Positions 10,903 through 52,501 of a stretch of 64,000 bases of DNA are shown here, in pieces. The notes beneath the pieces were generated by a model. It was not told where the DNA came from. It saw only the letters and a list, made by a program, of their open reading frames with translations, and did not search any database. The DNA is from Felis catus (taxonomy: Eukaryota), in the NCBI RefSeq assembly GCF_018350175.1, contig NC_058385.1, positions 60,574,001 to 60,638,000 on the forward strand, read 5' to 3'. Every line of letters starts with the position of its first letter. Positions within the stretch are counted from its first letter, which is position 1. The translations under genes and the position numbers were made by a program.

Positions 10903-11108
10903 GGGGCGCCTGGGTGGCTCAGCCAGTTGAGCGTCCGACTTCAGCTCAGGTCATGATCTTGCGCTCCGTGATTTCAAGCCCCACATCGGGCTCTGTGCTG
11001 ACAGCTCAGAGCCTGGAGCTGCTTCGGATTCTGTGTCTCCCTCTTTCTCTGTCCCTTCCCCGCTCATGCTCTGTCTCTGTCTCTCAAAAATGAATACACT
11101 TAAAAAAA
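10903..11108 (+). mobile_element. Can-SINE
   Basis: full head-body-(CT)n-tail; its tail is the target of the next SINE. Confidence 0.95.
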
Positions 11109-11115
11109 GTTAAGA

Positions 11116-11367
11116 GGGGCGCCTGGTTGGCGCAGTCGGTTAAGCGTCCGACTTCAGCCAGGTCACGATCTCGCAGTCCGTGAGTTCGAGCCCCGCGTCA
11201 GGCTCTGGGCTGATGGCTCGGAGCCTGGAGCCTGTTTCCACTTCTGTGTCTCCCTCTCTCTCTGCCCCTCCCCTGTTCATGCTCTGTCTCTCTCTGTCCC
11301 AAAAATAAATAAAAAAAAAAAAACATTGAAAAAAAAAAATTTAAAAAAAATAAAAAAAAATAAAAAA
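11116..11367 (+). mobile_element. Young felid Can-SINE (SINEC_Fc-like)
   Basis: CpG-intact body, gatggctcggagcctggagcctgtttcc diagnostic, long A-tail; TSD aaaaaaagttaagag at 11102-11116 and 11368-11382. Confidence 0.95.
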
Positions 11368-13008
11368 AAAAAAAGTTAAGAGAAAAAAAGTATTGTGGAA
11401 TATTGGGGAAAAAATATTCTGGAGTTGTGAGATCCAGCTTGACATTACCACCCTGCTACTTACTAGTCATGTCTCACTTAGCGCCATTTCCCAATCTGTT
11501 AAATGGAAATAATAATGTTGCAGGCAAAAGCACTTGCAAACTATATCTTCTATTATAAATATTGGTGATTATTATTAATAATGGTAAACAGTGATAAAAT
11601 CCATGGGGTAATAATATAATAATAATCTCTTTTAACATATATTTATCTGTCATCAAAGCACATATAAAATAAATTAGATTAACTTAAATGAAGGAGGGGG
11701 AAAGGAAAAGAACCATGTAGGAACTAGAAAAGGTCCAAATTATGAAGCACATTTAGAAAAATTAACTTTCATTTTTAAATACTACTTTAAGTCTGGAAAC
11801 TGCAGAAGAATTACTTACTCAACTTTTAAGAAATCAAAATTAATGAAATTCTATTGAACACTTTTAAATGTATGGCCCCCCCAGGTGCATAAAATAACCC
11901 TAAAATGGATATTTGGGCCTGGAGTAAAGAACGCATCTTGGCATACTAAAATAAATAAAGCATCCTTAATATAGTATTAAACTAAGTTATAAAACACACA
12001 GGAAACAATGAGGTTACTAAAGCAGCTCTTCTAACTGCTAAAGAAGCCTTTTTGTAATGCATGACCTAGAGTCATTACAGGCCCAAAGTAAGGTGTGTGC
12101 CAAGGTAGGTGTCAGAAAGGAACCACTGGCGCTCCATCGTTTTTAAAAAATTTAAGAAATGTCTGGCCCAAAGTGAAATCATCTCTGCCACCCTTCAGTT
12201 CATGACACAGAGCTCTTAAAACCCTTATAAACAGGGGTGCTAGGAGAACCTTTTGTTCTAACATTTCATTTTTGACCCCAGGTCCTGGGGCAGACCTTCT
12301 AAATCTCTTGTGATTTCCTCGGTGATAGTTGTGGCTTTTGTCCTAATGAGGTGACTCTTGCTGGGCTCCTGGATGCGGGCTGGTCACCAGAAAGACCAAG
12401 CTCTGATTAGGAACTTGAGCTTTCAGCCCCAGCCCCATTCTTCAGAGAGGGGTGAGGAGCTGGAAATGCCTACACAAGGAAGCCTCCGTGAAAATCCCAA
12501 TAGCACGGGGGTTCGAGGAGCTTCTGACTGGTGAACATATCCAAGTACTGGGAGGATAGCGCACCCCATCTTCATAGGATAGAAGTTCCTGGGCTGAGAG
12601 CCCTTCCAGATCTCACCCTATGAATCTCTTCATCTGGCTGTTCATCTGTGTCCTTTATTATACAATAAACTGATACACGGAAGGAAAGTGTTTCTGTGAC
12701 TTTGGTAGCGAATAATCAAATTAAAGCGGGGGGGGGGCGGGTCATGGGAACCTCCAATTTGCAGCTAAGTAGGACAGCTGTTGTGGGTAACCTGGGGCTC
12801 TGCTGCAATAGTCCCCTCTTATCCACAGGGGCTCCTGTGGGTGTCCCAAGACCTCCAGTGGGTGCCTGAAACTGGGGTAATACAGAGCCCTATATATACA
12901 ATGTTTTTTCCTACACATACATACCTACTATAAAGTTTAATTTATAAATTAGGCACAGTGAGAGATTAACAATAACTAATAATCAAATAAAACAAGTGTA
13001 CTAATACA

Positions 13009-13680
13009 CAGGCATACCGCAGCAATTCTGCAGGCTCAGTTCCAGACTACCACAATGAAGCAAATACCGCAATGAGGCAAGTCAAATGAATTTTTTGGTT
13101 TCCCAGTCCGTATGAAAGTTATGTTTACACTATTTTATAGTCTATTAAGTGTGCAATCACATTAGGTCTTTTAAAAATGTGTTTGGGGGGCGCCTGGGTG
13201 GCTCAGCTCAGTCAGTTGAGCGTCCAACTCTTGATTTCAGCTCAGGTCATGACCCCAGGGTCGTGCACTAAGCATGGAGCCTGCTTAAGACTCTCTCTCT
13301 CTCCCTCTCTCTCTCTCTCTCCCTCCCTCTCCCCCCTCTCCCCTGCTCACACTCTCTTTCTGTTTAAAATTAAAAAAAAAAAAAAAGTTGTGTTTTTACA
13401 TACCTTAATTTAAAAATATTACTCAAAACGCTAACAATCATCTGGGCTTTCTGCGAGTCACATTCACGGATCACAGACCACCACAGCAAACGTAACAATA
13501 ACGAAATAGTTCAAAATGTTGCGAGAATTACCCAAATGCAACACGGAGGACACGAAGTGAGCAAACACCCTTGGGAAACCCGGGCCAGGACACGTGCGCC
13601 ATAGCGGGTGGCCGCACACCTCCCACTGGGAAAGTACGCACTGTGCTCTCCGCAAAGTGCAACAAAGCTCGGCACGCCCG
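13009..13680. mobile_element. Internally deleted Tigger1-derived element
   Basis: left TIR caggcatacc; gttccagactaccacaat...tttggtttcccagt...aaagttatgtttacac...; gcgagaattacccaaatg...cacgaagtgagca; degenerate right TIR ggcacgcccg. Confidence 0.8.
13185..13386 (+). mobile_element. Can-SINE with internal deletion, inserted in the Tigger1 derivative
   Basis: gggggcgcctgggtggctcag head, B-box region missing, (CT)n, A-tail, tgtgttt on both flanks. Confidence 0.9.
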
Positions 13681-13980
13681 TCCCGCAACAGGAGCTGTGT
13701 GGCCGTGGTGGCTCTGCTCTCTTTCAAACCCTCTTTTTGTCCCGTACTCACTTTGCTCGCGCCGCGCCGGGGTGGGGTGATAAAAACGCCAGGAAGACGA
13801 GATGAAGGGAGGGGAACGCGGCGTGCGTCCTGACGTAACGTTAGCCTGCAATTGACCTTCTGACGATTCATCGCAAGGAGGGCCCTCTGCTTCCTGGCCT
13901 CGAAAGAGGCGGGCAACTGAAAGTGCCGAAATGGAAACCGCTGTCGTGGCGATTGGCATCGGAAGTGGGGCGCAGTTTTG
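13441..13980. promoter_or_regulatory. CpG island / GC peak built on transposon sequence
   Basis: about 40 CpG in 540 bp (hand count) against a CpG-depleted background. Confidence 0.7.
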
Positions 13981-15040
13981 TGTGACTGAGCCTTTACCTG
14001 CGGGGTCTGTGCTAACTCCAGTTGGTGTCCGAATGGAACAGACTTGTAGGACGCCCACTTGGCATCGGAGAGAATTGCCTGGTGTGGGGGAAATCCCTCC
14101 CTATCTGGTGGCAGAAGGACTTCTGTCTCTTCTTCACCATTTTATTCCACATCTGAAGCTGAAATTTGTTTCCAAACTGGACCAAACAGAGAGAGAGGGA
14201 GGATGAGAGGGAGAGAGAGGGGGAATATTCTCTGTAGAACATTCTCAAGTGACATCTTTAGTTATAAATTAGGACATCCTCTTACATGTATATGGTTCTG
14301 GTTACCATAATGTCCCAGCCTGAATATAAGACCTGCATTGCCTCTTAGCCCCAAAATCTAATCAGACTTGTACAAAGTGATATTTGGATTCCTGGATCTG
14401 GCTGCCCTCTGCCAAAATACAATAGGGCATCCTCACCTAAATGGCCTCCTTCGGGATACAGAGACCAAGCAATTCAACTAGTAACTACACAAACTAATTA
14501 ATACTTAGAGAAGAATATCTACCAGATGCATTATTATACCTTAGAAAGGACAATAGTAAAGGAACCACAGTAATCAAAAAGCTTTCACTGTATCACCAGG
14601 AAATAGTGTCGCCAGCACATAAGGGCCTACCACGAACTTAGTTCTCAGATAAACTTGGGTGAATAGCCAATTACTACTACCCGCTCGCCGTGTTATCTTA
14701 AACCTCTCAGAGCTTCAGTATTCACACCAAAGATTAATAACACCCATTTCTGAGATAATACAGATAAAGTCCTTTTTTGTACCAAAGACTGGTATTTTAA
14801 AAAAAGATCTGTTGTTTGGTATTATTATTAATGTGCTCTTTCTATATAATCTCCTAAGTATTCTTGCAAAAAATTGTTTATAAGAAGCGATTAGATGAAG
14901 TAGCCCTAATGAATTGCAAAAGTAACTTTACAATAATAACCTTTTCATGTTTTATAAGACTAGTCAAAAGAAAAATACTCTACAAAGAGATTGATTATTT
15001 TACTTCTTAAAAAACACTGATAATTTAAATTGCTCTCCCT

Positions 15041-31975: not shown

Positions 31976-32194
31976 TTTTAATTTTTTTTTTCAACGTTTA
32001 TTTATTTTTGGGACAGAGAGAGACAGAGCATGAACGGGGGAGGGGCAGAGAGAGAGGGAGACACAGAATCGGAAACAGGCTCCAGGCTCCGAGCCATCAG
32101 CCCAGAGCCTGACGCGGGGCTCGAACTCATGGACCGTGAGATCGTGACCTGGCTGAAGTCGGACGCTTAACCGACTGCGCCACCCAGGCGCCCC
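31976..32194 (-). mobile_element. Young felid Can-SINE
   Basis: reverse-oriented, CpG-intact; perfect TSD tcagaggatttttt at 31962-31975 and 32195-32208. Confidence 0.97.
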
Positions 32195-33844
32195 TCAGAG
32201 GATTTTTTAAAATGCACTAGTAATGTGTGGGAAAACACTCAACCCAAGTATTTTTCTTCTTGTAATCCATTCTTAGGGCAAAGTGCAGCATGTAGAACAT
32301 CTGTGCAAAGGAGGAACTCACCCATATGAAGAAACTCCTTGTAAGTTCTGAAGCCAGGGATGGTGTAGGGGACCTAGTCATGTCAGTCGAGTGGACAGCA
32401 AGTGCCATCTCCCAGACTCCCCTCCACTGCTAGTCTGACCATGGCGCCTGACCAGATGACTCTAAAACTGGACAAGGATTGATCCAAACTAACGTGGAGC
32501 TCTGAGGATGGCTGATTCCTAAATCTTGCTTGGTTAGGAACCCCTCACAAACCTGTTTCTAGAATAGTCCTCCTCAACCCCTAATGTTCACAAATCTTGA
32601 TAAGGCGTCCCTGAGTTCATAACACTTCAATCCTCAAAAAATAGTGATTTCTCCCCATGTGGAGAAAAACTGTACTTCAGACTTATCAAGTATCATGTTG
32701 ATCATAATCTGTTCATATTCTTTAACAGATATGTTATAAAGAAATCAGAACTAAAATTACCACTTATCACCAAAGGTAGAATTATTCTAGCTAACATTTT
32801 TGGTGCAATTTATAATTCTAATAATGCTTGTTTCATTGGTCACCCATTGGACTAAAGAAGAGACTTTTGTCAAAAGGAAGTGATGAAGTTAGTGACTTTT
32901 AAATAAGGTAACATTTACAAGAAAGAACAAAAGATTCAATCATGACTAAAACCCTTCAAGTTTTTTTACTGTTTAAATGGAAACTATTCTGTGAAGATTA
33001 GATAAACAAATGCTTTAGTAAAATCAACAATGAGTAATATATCAAATGAATGTTTCTTCACTTTGTAGAGAAGTCACAAAAGCTGCTCTATCAGATAACT
33101 GCGAAATTCATCCCCGACTCTTCCCAAAGTTAATAAACTATAAGCTGCTAGGTATTTCAAAACCATAAACTAAGGAACCAAAGTGACTATTTCTATCTTT
33201 TATGTATTTGTTCCTTGGGCTCCCTTCTTCTCTAACACATGATTGTTTCGGTCATCTTGAACACATTTCAATGTTTTTTTTTTAACCCACAGAGATAACT
33301 AGCTACTTTTGTAGAGATTTGTTCAAGAATAAACATTAGCTGGCATTGCAATACTGCTCTTATAGTATATTATGCATACTACTACTTGCCAGAATAAAGT
33401 TTCAGTTTAACACGTACATTTATAGATATACACATATGTGTGTCTATATACAGACAAGTAGAATTTTATATAGAGAGACTCTGTGTATATGAAAATGAGA
33501 CCTTTATTTGATTGTGTAATGTGCCAAAATATTAAAATTAGATAATTCAGCCAAGTTCTTCATGGTTTTGCTTGAAAAATCCCTTTTAAAATTCATGCAA
33601 AGTTGATTCACTTTCTTGAGACTCTCAAAAGAATCATGGATCAGTCTCAGTTTCACAACTAGTCTATTTGATCCTTAAGAATAGAGGAAGAAAAGGAATG
33701 AAGAGAAGGAGGAGGGAGAGAGAAGTAGAGGAGAGAATTGGGGCAGGGAAGGGAGGAAAATGAGCCACAGAAGGAAAAAGAAGTAGCAACTAATCAGTGT
33801 AAATTTACAGTAGAAGGAAATTACTTCTTAACAGTTATGATTCT

Positions 33845-36265: not shown

Positions 36266-37814
36266 CCAACGCCTATAGAAACACTTTCCTTCTACCCACC
36301 TCTTCTCTACCTGCCCCAGGCCCACACCCACAAACCAGTGATGGTCATCAACCTACAGCCTTCTCAGGGAGGACTGGAATTGTACCTTCCTTGTTCAGCT
36401 ATTGTTCTCATAACGTTTGCAAGAGAAATGCTATGGGGCAAAACAATCCTTGAATAACTGTCTCGGTTTATTTGCAATTTCAGTCCTGGCTCTTTTACAT
36501 CGCATTATATAAAGGCATCTTAAAGACACACTGCTGAGTTTATTTTTAAATGTCTTTATAGACACTTTCTTTAAAATAGAACACTTCCTTACGTCGTCCT
36601 TAACTGTGTCAGTCTTCCCATCGTCACCTTTATTATTTGAAAGCCCTTCGTCAAAGTGATGTTAATAAACAGTCCTGAGAGACAGTTTAGAGCCATCTAT
36701 TCCTCTAGAATCAAAGGAAATCAAATTTATTCTATTAATCCAGCCTGTGGGAGTTAATGGAGTCCCTTCATTCATCTTATCACAACTAGAAAGACTCACG
36801 GCGCCCCCATGCACAGATGACAAAACCACTTTCTCAGCTCCACCTCAGACCTGATCCCTCTTCCCACCACTGTCATTTTTTGGTTCATAGAGCCTTTCAC
36901 CAAGAACAGTCCTCCTTGATTATTCTCCGTGATTCATAACTAATCACTGGCACTGTACAAAGGAATGAAATATAAAGATTCATTGGAAAACATGGGATAT
37001 TATGTACCATTATATTTCTGTACCTTGAACATCATCAACTTTCTGGATTGATTGCATTTGGGTTTCCATTTTTAATACTAGCATTGCATGTACAGGCGGC
37101 ATAAAAATCTGTCGTTAAATGCAGCCTTAATCTGCACTCGCTAAGCGCACAACCCACCCACAGCTGGCTCAGTCTAGGGCACTACCTAGGCCCACTGACA
37201 TTCGGCTATGCTTCTGGCCTCCTCGGGTTGTGGAGGCCCCCACAAGGCACCTGCACGCTCCTAGATTCCCCAGGGCTCCAGGCTCCCGTGGGCTCCCGTG
37301 GGCCTGAGGAAATGGGGCAGGCGGGCGTGCCAAGCAGCCGGTTTTTATTCAGGCATTTGCCAGAAGGGAAATTGCTAAAATGTTTTAGGGCCCCCTCAGG
37401 AGAATAAAAATGTCACACTGCCTTTAGCTTTTATCCCTCAGCTAAAAATCAATGTTTTCTAAAAGAGAGAAGCTTTCAATACTCTTGTAAGGGTTTTGCT
37501 TCAGATCCAGCTTATATTAATTAAGCACATACTTTTGGCAAGTGTTTTAAATAACTTCATTCCCATAACAATCAGGTATCAACCATCTTCACCTTACATT
37601 TGTGGAAACTGAGCCTGAGGGACTAAATGGCCCCTGAAGGTCACACAGCCTCAGGGGCAGAAGTGGAATTTGCACTTGGTTCCTGGAATTCTCTGTTTGA
37701 TGTCCCATTTTATGTCGCTGTGTCTCACCATATTCTGATCATACATCTCCAGCAGGAGAGAGTTTAGGCTAAATGAAATACGCTATGGCTGAGTCCTACA
37801 TAGAACTGTCATGA

Positions 37815-42952: not shown

Positions 42953-43553
42953 TTCTATACACTGGATGTTTGTGTCCCTCCACCCCAGATTCATTTGTTA
43001 AAACCTAATTCTCAATGGGATAATATTTGGATGTAGGGGGTGATTAGGTCATGAGGATGGAGCCATCATCAATGGCATTAGTGCCCTTATTAGAGATGCG
43101 ACAGTGCTCCCTGACCTACTTTCACCATGTGAGAATATAGTGAGAGGACAGCCCTCTGTGAACCAGGAAGCAGGCCTTCCCCAGACACTGAACGTGCCGG
43201 GGCCTTGATCTCTGACTTTCCACCTCCAGAGCTATAAGAAATAAACACCTGCTGGGGCACCTGGGTGGCGCAGTCGGTTAAGCGTCCGACTTCAGCCAGG
43301 TCACGATCTCGCGGTCCGTGAGTTCGAGCCCCGCGTCAGGCTCTGGGCTGATGGCTCAGAGCCTGGAGCCTGTTTCCGATTCTGTGTCTCCCTCTCTCTC
43401 TGCCCCTCCCCCGTTCATGCTCTGTCTCTCTCTGTCCCAAAAATAAATAAACGTTGAAAAAAAAAAAGAAAAAAAAAAAAGAAATAAACACCTGCTATTT
43501 GTAAGCCACCCAGCCATTCAGGGATTCTATCACAGCCCATGTAGAACAAGACA
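42953..43553 (+). mobile_element. MLT1A0-like MaLR solo LTR interrupted by a SINE
   Basis: actggatgtttgtgtccctc...gtgattaggtcatgaggatggagcc...gaaccaggaagcaggcc...taagccacccag...aagaca. Confidence 0.88.
43254..43478 (+). mobile_element. Young felid Can-SINE
   Basis: perfect 18-bp TSD aagaaataaacacctgct at 43236-43253 and 43479-43496. Confidence 0.97.
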
Positions 43554-52268: not shown

Positions 52269-52501
52269 GGGGCGCCTGGGTGGCGCAGTCGGTTAAGCGT
52301 CCGACTTCAGCCAGGTCACGATCTCGCGGTCCGTGGGTTCGAGCCCCGCGTCGGGCTCTGGGCTGACAGCTCGGAGCCTGGAGCCTGTTTCTGATTCTGT
52401 GTCTCCCTCTCTCTCTGACCCTCCCCCGTTCATGCTCTGTCTCTCTCTGTCCCAAAAATAAATAAAAACGTTGAAAAAAAAATTAAAAAAAATAAAAAAA
52501 A
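52269..52501 (+). mobile_element. Young felid Can-SINE
   Basis: perfect TSD aagaaagtatctgatggag at 52251-52269 and 52502-52520; TT/AAGA L1-endonuclease-type site. Confidence 0.97.

What the first reader, a model, noticed from the sequence alone, without database searches (positions are those of the whole stretch)
13441..13980. New CpG island written onto AT-rich transposon DNA by one-directional A/T-to-G/C substitution
Seen directly: the Tigger1-derived element's left TIR is CAGGCATACC (13009-13018), so the right TIR should read GGTATGCCTG. It reads GGCACGCCCG (13671-13680): three changes, all T>C, two creating CpG. The left half of the same MER44 (12807-13008) is still AT-rich while its right half is GC/CpG-rich, with about 40 CpG in 540 bp by hand count. 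Against the MER44 consensus as I recall it (ctgtaataaaagttatgtgaatgtgg), 13683-13708 reads ccgcaacaggagctgtgtggccgtgg: 10 of 26 positions differ and all are weak-to-strong. The shift crosses three different element boundaries, so it happened in place after insertion. Old transposons normally lose CpG. Inference: this is a long-lived recombination hotspot with GC-biased gene conversion plus germline hypomethylation. Such GC peaks are best known in canids, which lack functional PRDM9, so a strong one in a felid would be notable.
Basis: partly seen in the sequence, partly recalled or inferred. Interest (0 to 1): 0.78.

Follow-up and report, generated by a model that had tools for sequence, protein, structure and literature searches.

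The report
CpG island overwritten on dead transposons
A half-kilobase CpG island in cat-like DNA sits on two old, once AT-rich DNA transposons in which up to half of the A/T bases became G/C, most likely at a long-lived and probably now extinct recombination hotspot; this is a clear single-locus example of a known process.

Summary
13441-13980 has 43 CpG, GC 0.57 and CpG O/E 0.99 (window 0.23).

Against majorities of 27 genome copies each of two nested DNA transposons, 13481-13860 shows 82/216 weak-to-strong (A/T>G/C) changes and 9/112 in reverse. The left halves show 33/293 and 16/132. The profile is a single ~500-bp peak reaching ~50%. A>G, T>C and transversions are raised 4-6-fold; A<>T is not. 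Of the 43 CpGs, 31 are new. No GC-rich subfamily was found, and 13-14 DNA runs carry the same sequence.

Corrections: two elements are clearly rewritten, the flanking LTR only weakly. Contigs from two probably different felid lineages share 93 of 95 changes, and the 9 later differences are not GC-biased (p~0.003). The episode is therefore probably old and over, and may predate felids.

Best reading: GC-biased gene conversion at a long-lived, probably PRDM9-independent, hypomethylated hotspot (0.7). Recombination and methylation were not measured. It is a known kind: cat orphan islands overlap such tracts (PMC11170920), and most mammals use PRDM9-independent hotspots (PMC11161765). The scan noted similar cases on other DNA, several in this genome.

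The parts
12235..12804 (.). Outermost element of the nest.
   Evidence: 40 other matches at 67-85% identity. In copy L092/L032 the left and right parts are contiguous. Pairwise non-CpG bias ratio over most of this part is 1.32.
12805..13008 (.). Left half of a MER44-like DNA transposon; internal control, not rewritten
   Evidence: W>S 15/128, S>W 7/58; copies 0.090 and 0.154. GC 0.37, 0 CpG.
13009..13180 (.). Left part of a Tigger1-like internally deleted element, with its left TIR at 13009-13018; not rewritten
   Evidence: W>S 12/106, S>W 6/49; copies 0.110 and 0.164.
13181..13392 (+). Carnivore-type SINE inserted in the Tigger-like element; outside the peak
   Evidence: Too few close relatives were in hand to date or polarise it.
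13393..13680 (.). Right part of the Tigger1-like element. Bias rises towards its right end; right TIR at 13671-13680 carries 3 T>C changes.
   Evidence: W>S 6/59 (13393-13480), 17/69 (13481-13580), 25/46 (13581-13680); S>W 3/25, 4/26, 1/29.
13681..13950 (.). Right half of the MER44-like element; rewritten, bias falling rightwards
   Evidence: W>S 27/53, 14/49, 9/37; S>W 2/27, 2/30, 3/28. Its copies were selected on the left half only.
13947..14118 (.). Right part of the LTR-type repeat; CpG-enriched, non-CpG bias within the range of other copies
   Evidence: Pairwise counts only: ratio 1.67 over 44 copies; 4.3 CpG per 100 bp.
13441..13980 (.). The CpG island: 43 CpG (31 new, 8 ancestral kept, 4 unscored)
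13555..13824 (.). Summit of the weak-to-strong peak (40-59% of ancestral A/T sites changed per 60-bp window)
   Evidence: Sliding profile.

Best explanation
A ~500-bp stretch spanning two nested DNA-transposon fossils was rewritten in place from A/T to G/C, most likely by GC-biased gene conversion at a long-lived, probably PRDM9-independent meiotic hotspot that likely went quiet before the sampled cat lineages split. Shown: one-way change in both elements, a single bell-shaped peak, transitions and transversions raised alike, A<>T unchanged, S>W reduced, 31 new CpGs. Inferred: repeated meiotic breaks centred near 13600-13800 made heteroduplexes repaired towards G/C, so that A/T>G/C variants were fixed at several times the background rate (B roughly 7-15 over half or more of the elements' age) and G/C>A/T changes, CpG decay included, were suppressed. 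Once GC-rich, the site probably became or stayed unmethylated in the germ line. That would both attract PRDM9-independent breaks (a feedback) and keep the CpGs after conversion stopped. No function is needed or shown.
For: Core 13481-13860: W>S 82/216 against 33/293 in the left halves (Fisher p=2e-12). With all present-day CpG sites removed it is still 55/189. Against copies: W>S transitions x4.4, W>S transversions x5.9, A<>T x1.2 (n.s.), S>W x0.4-0.6. S>W at the summit is 3/65 against a ~0.15 background (p=0.008). The profile is unimodal and ignores the element boundary. 53 of 54 copies have W>S <=0.17 in the same columns; the window has 0.37 and 0.40. No preference for WA context: 39/124 against 43/91 in SA context. 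Ancestral CpGs kept: 8/20 in the core, 1/13 on the left, 39/496 in copies. A rough two-state model fits the observed S>W best with bias lasting about 50-75% of the time; a 10% episode needs B~74 and predicts S>W 0.13 against 0.046 seen. Human PRDM9 hotspots reach B>10 but last <0.7-1.3 Myr (PMC4510005, sections 15-16). Timing: X15 and X16 differ from the window at 9 listed sites, W>S 2, S>W 4, S>S 3, against about 93:11 before (p~0.003; 0.006 without the depth-2.3 contig).
Against: No recombination, methylation or chromatin data. PMC11161765 warns that gBGC rate estimates are not appropriate for a single locus, and reports a deficit at default hotspots in some felids. S<>S changes are also raised (9/112, x3.3, p=0.002), which gBGC alone does not predict; multiple hits, misalignment or break-associated mutagenesis are possible. 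T>C exceeds A>G per site (35/95 against 22/120, p=0.003 raw; p=0.07 and 0.42 per side after correcting with copy rates). 6 of 20 ancestral CpGs did decay, so the site was not always protected. Present-day hypomethylation rests on 2 CpG transitions against 3.4-12.6 expected (P 0.33 to 0.0003 depending on assumptions). The dating rests on 9 sites in RNA-library contigs of unidentified animals, one at depth 2.3, with one X15 difference unlisted; some may be polymorphisms. This genome appears to carry an intact PRDM9, so PRDM9-independence is inferred only from duration.
Confidence: 0.7

Rival explanations
1. The same gBGC, but delivered by one or several PRDM9-directed hotspots (short, very strong episodes) rather than a default hotspot.
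For: A PRDM9-like locus with open SSXRD, PR/SET-type and zinc-finger exons is present. The episode appears to have ended, as PRDM9 hotspots do.
Against: About 50% of A/T sites changed and S>W was suppressed (3/65). A short episode needs B above 70 and predicts background S>W. Reported lifetimes of human hotspots are about 1 Myr (PMC4510005).
Confidence: 0.12
2. A local mutational process (error-prone repair or translesion synthesis at a break-prone, open or transcribed site) that makes G/C from A/T, with hypomethylation preserving the CpGs; no fixation bias.
For: S<>S is raised x3.3 and T>C exceeds A>G in raw counts. The three changes private to the window lineage are all S<>S.
Against: A<>T is not raised (x1.2), S>W is reduced, and there is no WA-context preference of the polymerase-eta kind (signature recalled). 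Both A>G and T>C occur on one strand, which excludes strand-specific A-to-I editing. Later changes are not W>S.
Confidence: 0.08
3. Selection built a promoter or enhancer CpG island out of the transposons (exaptation).
For: RNA-library contigs from three studies lie within 13403-14063 (DNA carry-over not excluded). Recalled motifs are present: E-box 13591, KLF-type 13769, CRE half-sites 13831 and 13861. The CpGs persist.
Against: Two thirds of the W>S changes are outside CpG. O/E of about 1 is what random creation without decay gives. No gene was identified: 0 of 67 long frames hit Pfam, and 0 Rfam hits. No splice was seen; the one long RNA loose end maps to another contig.
Confidence: 0.07
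4. A GC-rich repeat subfamily, conversion from a paralogue, or an assembly error.
For: One copy, L029, is also GC-shifted (33/115 W>S).
Against: L029's changes are independent of the window's (12 of 38 sites overlap, p=0.37; 7 with the same base), and it lies in a broadly GC-rich zone 2.2 Mb from a contig end. The best other matches are <=86% over short pieces. 14 runs from 6 studies hold all 69 sampled words (13 of them flagged as possible sources), and X15, X16 and X18 carry the GC-rich state independently.
Confidence: 0.02

Closest known systems
Orphan CpG islands overlapping phastBias gBGC tracts in cat, dog, pig and horse (Kocher et al. 2024, PMC11170920; passages read)
   Same: A CpG island with no identified gene and a strong weak-to-strong excess, in a cat-like genome; gBGC is proposed there as a way such islands arise.
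   Different: Here the ancestral sequence is read base by base from transposon copies, and the episode appears to predate the sampled cat lineages. Enhancer marks are untested.
Dog GC-peaks and gBGC-made intergenic CpG islands (Berglund et al. 2015, PMC4350167; parts 1-3 of 5 read)
   Same: About 500 bp wide, W>S about 4-fold above background (dog CGIs 0.26 against 0.06), CpG decay reduced, away from identified genes.
   Different: This genome appears to have PRDM9. GC elevation is 1.44x, just under their 1.5x threshold. The bias seems to have stopped, whereas it is ongoing in dog.
PRDM9-independent (default) hotspots in mammals with PRDM9 (Joseph et al. 2024, PMC11161765; parts 1, 3, 4 of 8 and passages read)
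   Same: A narrow GC* peak tied to hypomethylation in PRDM9-bearing lineages, evolving slowly. The deficit reported in some felids fits the lack of recent bias here.
   Different: Those loci were defined from mouse knockout and dog maps and are promoter-like. This one lies wholly on transposon DNA that began AT-rich.
Transposon-derived CpG islands from young CpG-rich elements (You et al. 2025, PMC12582260; first part and passages read)
   Same: A CpG island that overlaps transposable elements.
   Different: There the CpGs are inherited from young LINE, SINE or LTR sequence. Here 31 of 43 CpGs arose after insertion in old AT-rich DNA transposons, a class and mechanism not mentioned in that text (0 hits for 'DNA transposon' and 'gene conversion').

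Membership tests
CpG island (sequence definition) | >=200 bp, GC >50%, O/E >=0.6 (PMC12582260); stricter >=500 bp, GC >=55%, O/E >=0.65 (recalled) | tested here: met
   540 bp, GC 0.569, O/E 0.99
CpG island (functional) | Unmethylated in the germ line | tested here: inconclusive
   Indirect only: ancestral CpGs kept 8/20 against about 8% in copies; 2 CpG transitions against 3 transversions at CpG sites since the split. No bisulfite data.
gBGC tract | Excess of W>S over S>W substitutions, also outside CpG | tested here: met
   82/216 against 9/112; without present-day CpG sites 55/189 against 9/89
gBGC tract | GC-conservative changes not raised | tested here: inconclusive
   A<>T x1.2 (n.s.) but C<>G x3.3 (p=0.002)
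gBGC tract | Strand-symmetric, covering transitions and transversions | tested here: met
   A>G 22, T>C 35, A>C 16, T>G 9; the T>C excess is not significant after correction with copy rates
gBGC tract | Derived G/C alleles at higher frequency than derived A/T alleles; raised local recombination | not testable with these tools
   No population genotypes or recombination map were available
Dog-type GC peak (Berglund/Axelsson definition) | 500-bp window at least 50% above the 10-kb background GC | tested here: not met
   0.594/0.414 = 1.44
Dog-type GC peak | Occurs in a lineage lacking functional PRDM9 | tested here: not met
   SSXRD hit, two open PR/SET-type exon frames and a 507-aa open frame with 9 C2H2 matches at G000:C39:61.71 Mb. 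KRAB exon and function not checked.
PRDM9-independent (default) hotspot | Long-lived at one position | tested here: inconclusive
   A rough model favours bias over half or more of the elements' age; the counts are small
PRDM9-independent (default) hotspot | Breaks (DMC1 signal) at a hypomethylated, H3K4me3-marked site without PRDM9 binding | not testable with these tools
   No such data were available
Tigger1/MER44/MER21 Dfam families | Match to the curated consensus | not testable with these tools
Repeat status, TIRs and nesting are shown from genome copies.

The most novel reading that the evidence does not exclude
A default-type recombination hotspot was born on inert transposon DNA in a PRDM9-bearing carnivore ancestor. 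It built its own CpG island through a feedback of conversion and hypomethylation over tens of millions of years, then switched off before the cats radiated, while the island stayed unmethylated and weakly transcribed as a proto-promoter. Transposon copies would then give a base-resolution fossil record of the birth and death of default hotspots, and of a past shift of felids away from them.
Probability: 0.25. Interest if true: 0.55.

Novelty: new member of a known kind. Interest (0 to 1): 0.3.

Why it matters
How orphan CpG islands arise is debated: inherited, protected from transposons, or written by gBGC. This locus is a clean case of the third route. The starting sequence is known from dozens of sibling copies, each element carries its own unchanged half as a control, and 31 of 43 CpGs are new. 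It also suggests a cheap genome-wide test: polarise every old DNA-transposon copy against its family majority to map extinct hotspots, and ask whether felids stopped using default hotspots. As a single locus it adds an example, not a mechanism.

Tried and rejected
GC-rich subfamily, paralogue conversion and assembly error: rejected.

A-to-I editing: rejected, because both A>G and T>C occur on one strand, along with transversions.

Subtelomeric effect: rejected; the locus lies 22.9 Mb from the nearer end of an 83.5-Mb contig.

Splice junction from the 98-nt loose end of X15: it has no match in the window and an exact match on contig C15, so it is probably a library chimera.

Protein-coding reading: the 225- and 190-codon stop-free frames on the minus strand (13467-14141, 13531-14100) have no Pfam hit. 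Stop-type triplets fell from 0.12 to 0.04 per base; 12 of 1000 local shuffles reach 225, and the region was chosen post hoc. Treated as a by-product. No Rfam family. Gene context not found: 0 of 67 frames tested (of 71 listed) hit Pfam.

Dating with the SINE: uninformative, as it lies outside the peak and has no close relatives in hand.

Rotational strand asymmetry around a break centre: not seen; T>C is higher on both sides and not significant.

X17 and X20 were never laid. No orthologue from a non-felid could be fetched, and no look-alike stretch is in the scan's notes.

Rows dropped: L011 and L015 (interrupted by SINEs) and L070 and L082 (longer variants) before alignment. L029, L072, L024 and L008 were dropped from the background only. 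With them kept, the fold excess is 3.1 and 3.7 over the full right halves.

Full report
OBSERVATION. The stretch 13441-13980 has 43 CpG in 540 bp, GC 0.569 and CpG O/E 0.99; the window as a whole has O/E 0.23. After masking SINEs it is the richest CpG patch in 84 kb: 27 CpG per 300 bp, next best 12. Against genome copies, the right TIR has three T>C changes and the 26-mer has 10 differences, all weak-to-strong. The locus is at G000:C46:60.587 Mb of an 83.5-Mb contig, so it is not subtelomeric. That the animal is a felid is inferred from the SINE type (recalled) and from a 'feline metagenome' label among the holders.

ANATOMY. Genome searches show a four-level nest. An LTR-type repeat (about 12235-12804 and 13947-14118; contiguous in copy L092/L032) is interrupted by a MER44-like DNA transposon (12805-13008 and 13681-13950). 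That is interrupted by a Tigger1-like internally deleted element (13009-13680), which is interrupted by a SINE (13181-13392).

POLARISED SUBSTITUTIONS. For each DNA-transposon family I took the 29 non-self loci returned (of 39-40 other matches listed), dropped 2 each (interrupted or longer variants), aligned 27, and used the column majority (at least 60%) as the ancestral state. Columns with a decayed-CpG signature were set aside. The MER44-like copies were selected on the left half only, so the right-half test is free of ascertainment. For the Tigger-like copies, selection by similarity to the window is conservative.

The left halves behave like ordinary copies (W>S 15/128 and 12/106). W>S then rises through 6/59, 17/69, 25/46, 27/53, 14/49 and 9/37 from 13393 to 13950, while S>W is 1/29 and 2/27 at the summit. 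The 60-bp sliding profile is a single peak with a summit at about 13555-13824. Core 13481-13860: W>S 82/216, S>W 9/112, conservative 14/328. Left control 12805-13480: 33/293, 16/132, 11/425. Fisher p is 2e-12 for the W>S rate and 0.22 for the conservative rate. Excluding every base now in a CpG leaves 55/189.

Relative to 50 copies (4 of 54 dropped; see Tried and rejected): W>S transitions x4.4, W>S transversions x5.9, A<>T x1.2, C<>G x3.3 (p=0.002), S>W x0.4-0.6. In leave-one-out tests 53 of 54 copies have W>S of 0.17 or less, against 0.37 and 0.40 for the window. The exception, L029 (0.29), changed at independent sites and lies in a broad GC-rich zone near a contig end. Of 43 CpGs, 31 are new, 8 ancestral and 4 unscored. 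Ancestral CpGs survive at 8/20 in the core, 1/13 on the left and 39/496 in copies.

The LTR part was compared pairwise only. Its non-CpG bias ratio is 1.67 on the right and 1.32 on the left; the bin next to the transposon is 0.66; and 5 of 40 copies exceed the window. The third element is therefore not clearly rewritten.

NOT AN ARTEFACT. Fourteen runs from 6 studies hold all 69 sampled words; 13 of them are flagged as possible sources. Three RNA-library runs carry the GC-rich state as well. No near-identical paralogue was among the scored candidates.

TIMING. Contigs of X15 (489 bp covered, 5 listed differences, 1 unlisted) and X16 (571 bp, 7 differences, 2 indels, one contig at depth 2.3) differ from the window and from each other by about 1.2-1.5%. 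At 4 of the 6 sites scored (13581, 13792, 13830, 13903) they carry the transposon-majority base, and probably also at 13545 and 13755 (read by eye). That argues for real orthologous alleles, likely from other cat species; their identity is not established. At 93 of the 95 scored W>S sites, no covering contig lists a difference from the window. The 9 later changes are W>S 2, S>W 4, S>S 3 (p~0.003 against the earlier ratio; 0.006 without the low-depth contig; 0.04 for the window lineage alone). The biased episode is therefore probably over.

The host elements are about 13-14% diverged from their majorities outside CpG (from the rates), against 18.3% pairwise for dog-cat (PMC4350167). They are likely older than the cat-dog split, so the episode cannot be assigned to Felidae. 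Among the later changes, only 2 are CpG transitions over 64 CpG bases, and 3 are transversions at CpG sites. That hints at continued hypomethylation (P 0.33 to 0.0003 depending on the assumed methylated rate; the 11-fold figure is recalled).

MECHANISM. The spectrum (both strands, both mutation types, A<>T flat, S>W reduced), the width and the indifference to the element boundary are what a fixation bias towards G/C at a focal site predicts. A rough two-state model needs B~7 if the bias lasted the whole time, ~9 for 75%, ~14 for 50% and ~74 for 10%. The observed S>W (3/65) fits the 50-75% range best. Human PRDM9 hotspots reach B>10 but last about 1 Myr (PMC4510005, sections 15-16), so a long-lived, default-type hotspot is the likelier source. 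This is so even though this genome has a PRDM9-like locus with open SSXRD, PR/SET-type and 9-finger exons. Note that strong gBGC would itself protect CpGs, so O/E near 1 does not prove hypomethylation during the episode. Unexplained: the C<>G excess. No function is shown. RNA-library contigs of three studies lie over the island but may be DNA; there is no Pfam or Rfam hit; the long stop-free frames follow from loss of stop triplets.

KNOWN WORK. Five answered paper searches found the process described genome-wide. PMC4350167 (parts 1-3 of 5 read): gBGC likely generated many intergenic islands in dog. [quoted passage not shown] PMC11161765 (parts 1, 3, 4 of 8 and passages): 39 of 52 mammals show recombination enrichment at default-hotspot orthologues, and some felids a deficit. 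Supplements were not read; the figure behind the cat statement (Fig. S47) and the per-felid values may bear on how common such sites are. None of the listings from these searches described this locus. The scan's notes hold similar cases in this genome and another (unchecked), and none for this sequence.

VERDICT. Real and strong; a new member of a known kind; interest 0.3. The useful additions are the internal controls and the indication that the hotspot is a fossil.

Noticed in passing
L029 / L134 (G000:C15:2,183,000-2,183,700): Another copy of the same Tigger-like element is independently rewritten (W>S 33/115, S>W 2/54, 14 CpG). It lies in a broadly GC- and CpG-rich zone 2.2 Mb from the contig start, with 43 CpG in the adjoining 500 bp.
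   Followed up: partly
window 13467-14141 and 13531-14100, minus strand: The two longest stop-free frames of the window (225 and 190 codons) overlie the island. No Pfam hit; likely by-products of GC enrichment.
   Followed up: yes
window 13481-13950: C<>G changes are 3.3-fold above copies, and all three changes private to the window lineage are C<>G; unexplained.
   Followed up: partly
G000:C39:61,710,633-61,716,439 (L129, L132, L133): PRDM9-like locus with an SSXRD motif, PR/SET-type exons and a 507-aa open last exon with 9 C2H2 matches. A second SSXRD hit at C47:42.2 Mb (L130) was not examined.
   Followed up: partly
window 13403-14063: RNA-library contigs from three studies fall on the island, with right ends at 14038 and 14063; transcription is not shown (DNA carry-over possible).
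   Followed up: partly
window 10904-11320: Two young CpG-rich SINEs in tandem. Other CpG-rich patches at about 32000-32200, 43250-43470 and 52270-52480 are also young SINEs.
   Followed up: yes
window 37051-37350; L123 (window-equivalent 71901-72200): Next-richest non-SINE CpG patches (12 CpG per 300 bp each); not examined.
   Followed up: no
window 13187-13292: The SINE inside the Tigger-like element has a 5-bp duplication near its 5' end and appears internally shortened relative to related copies.
   Followed up: no
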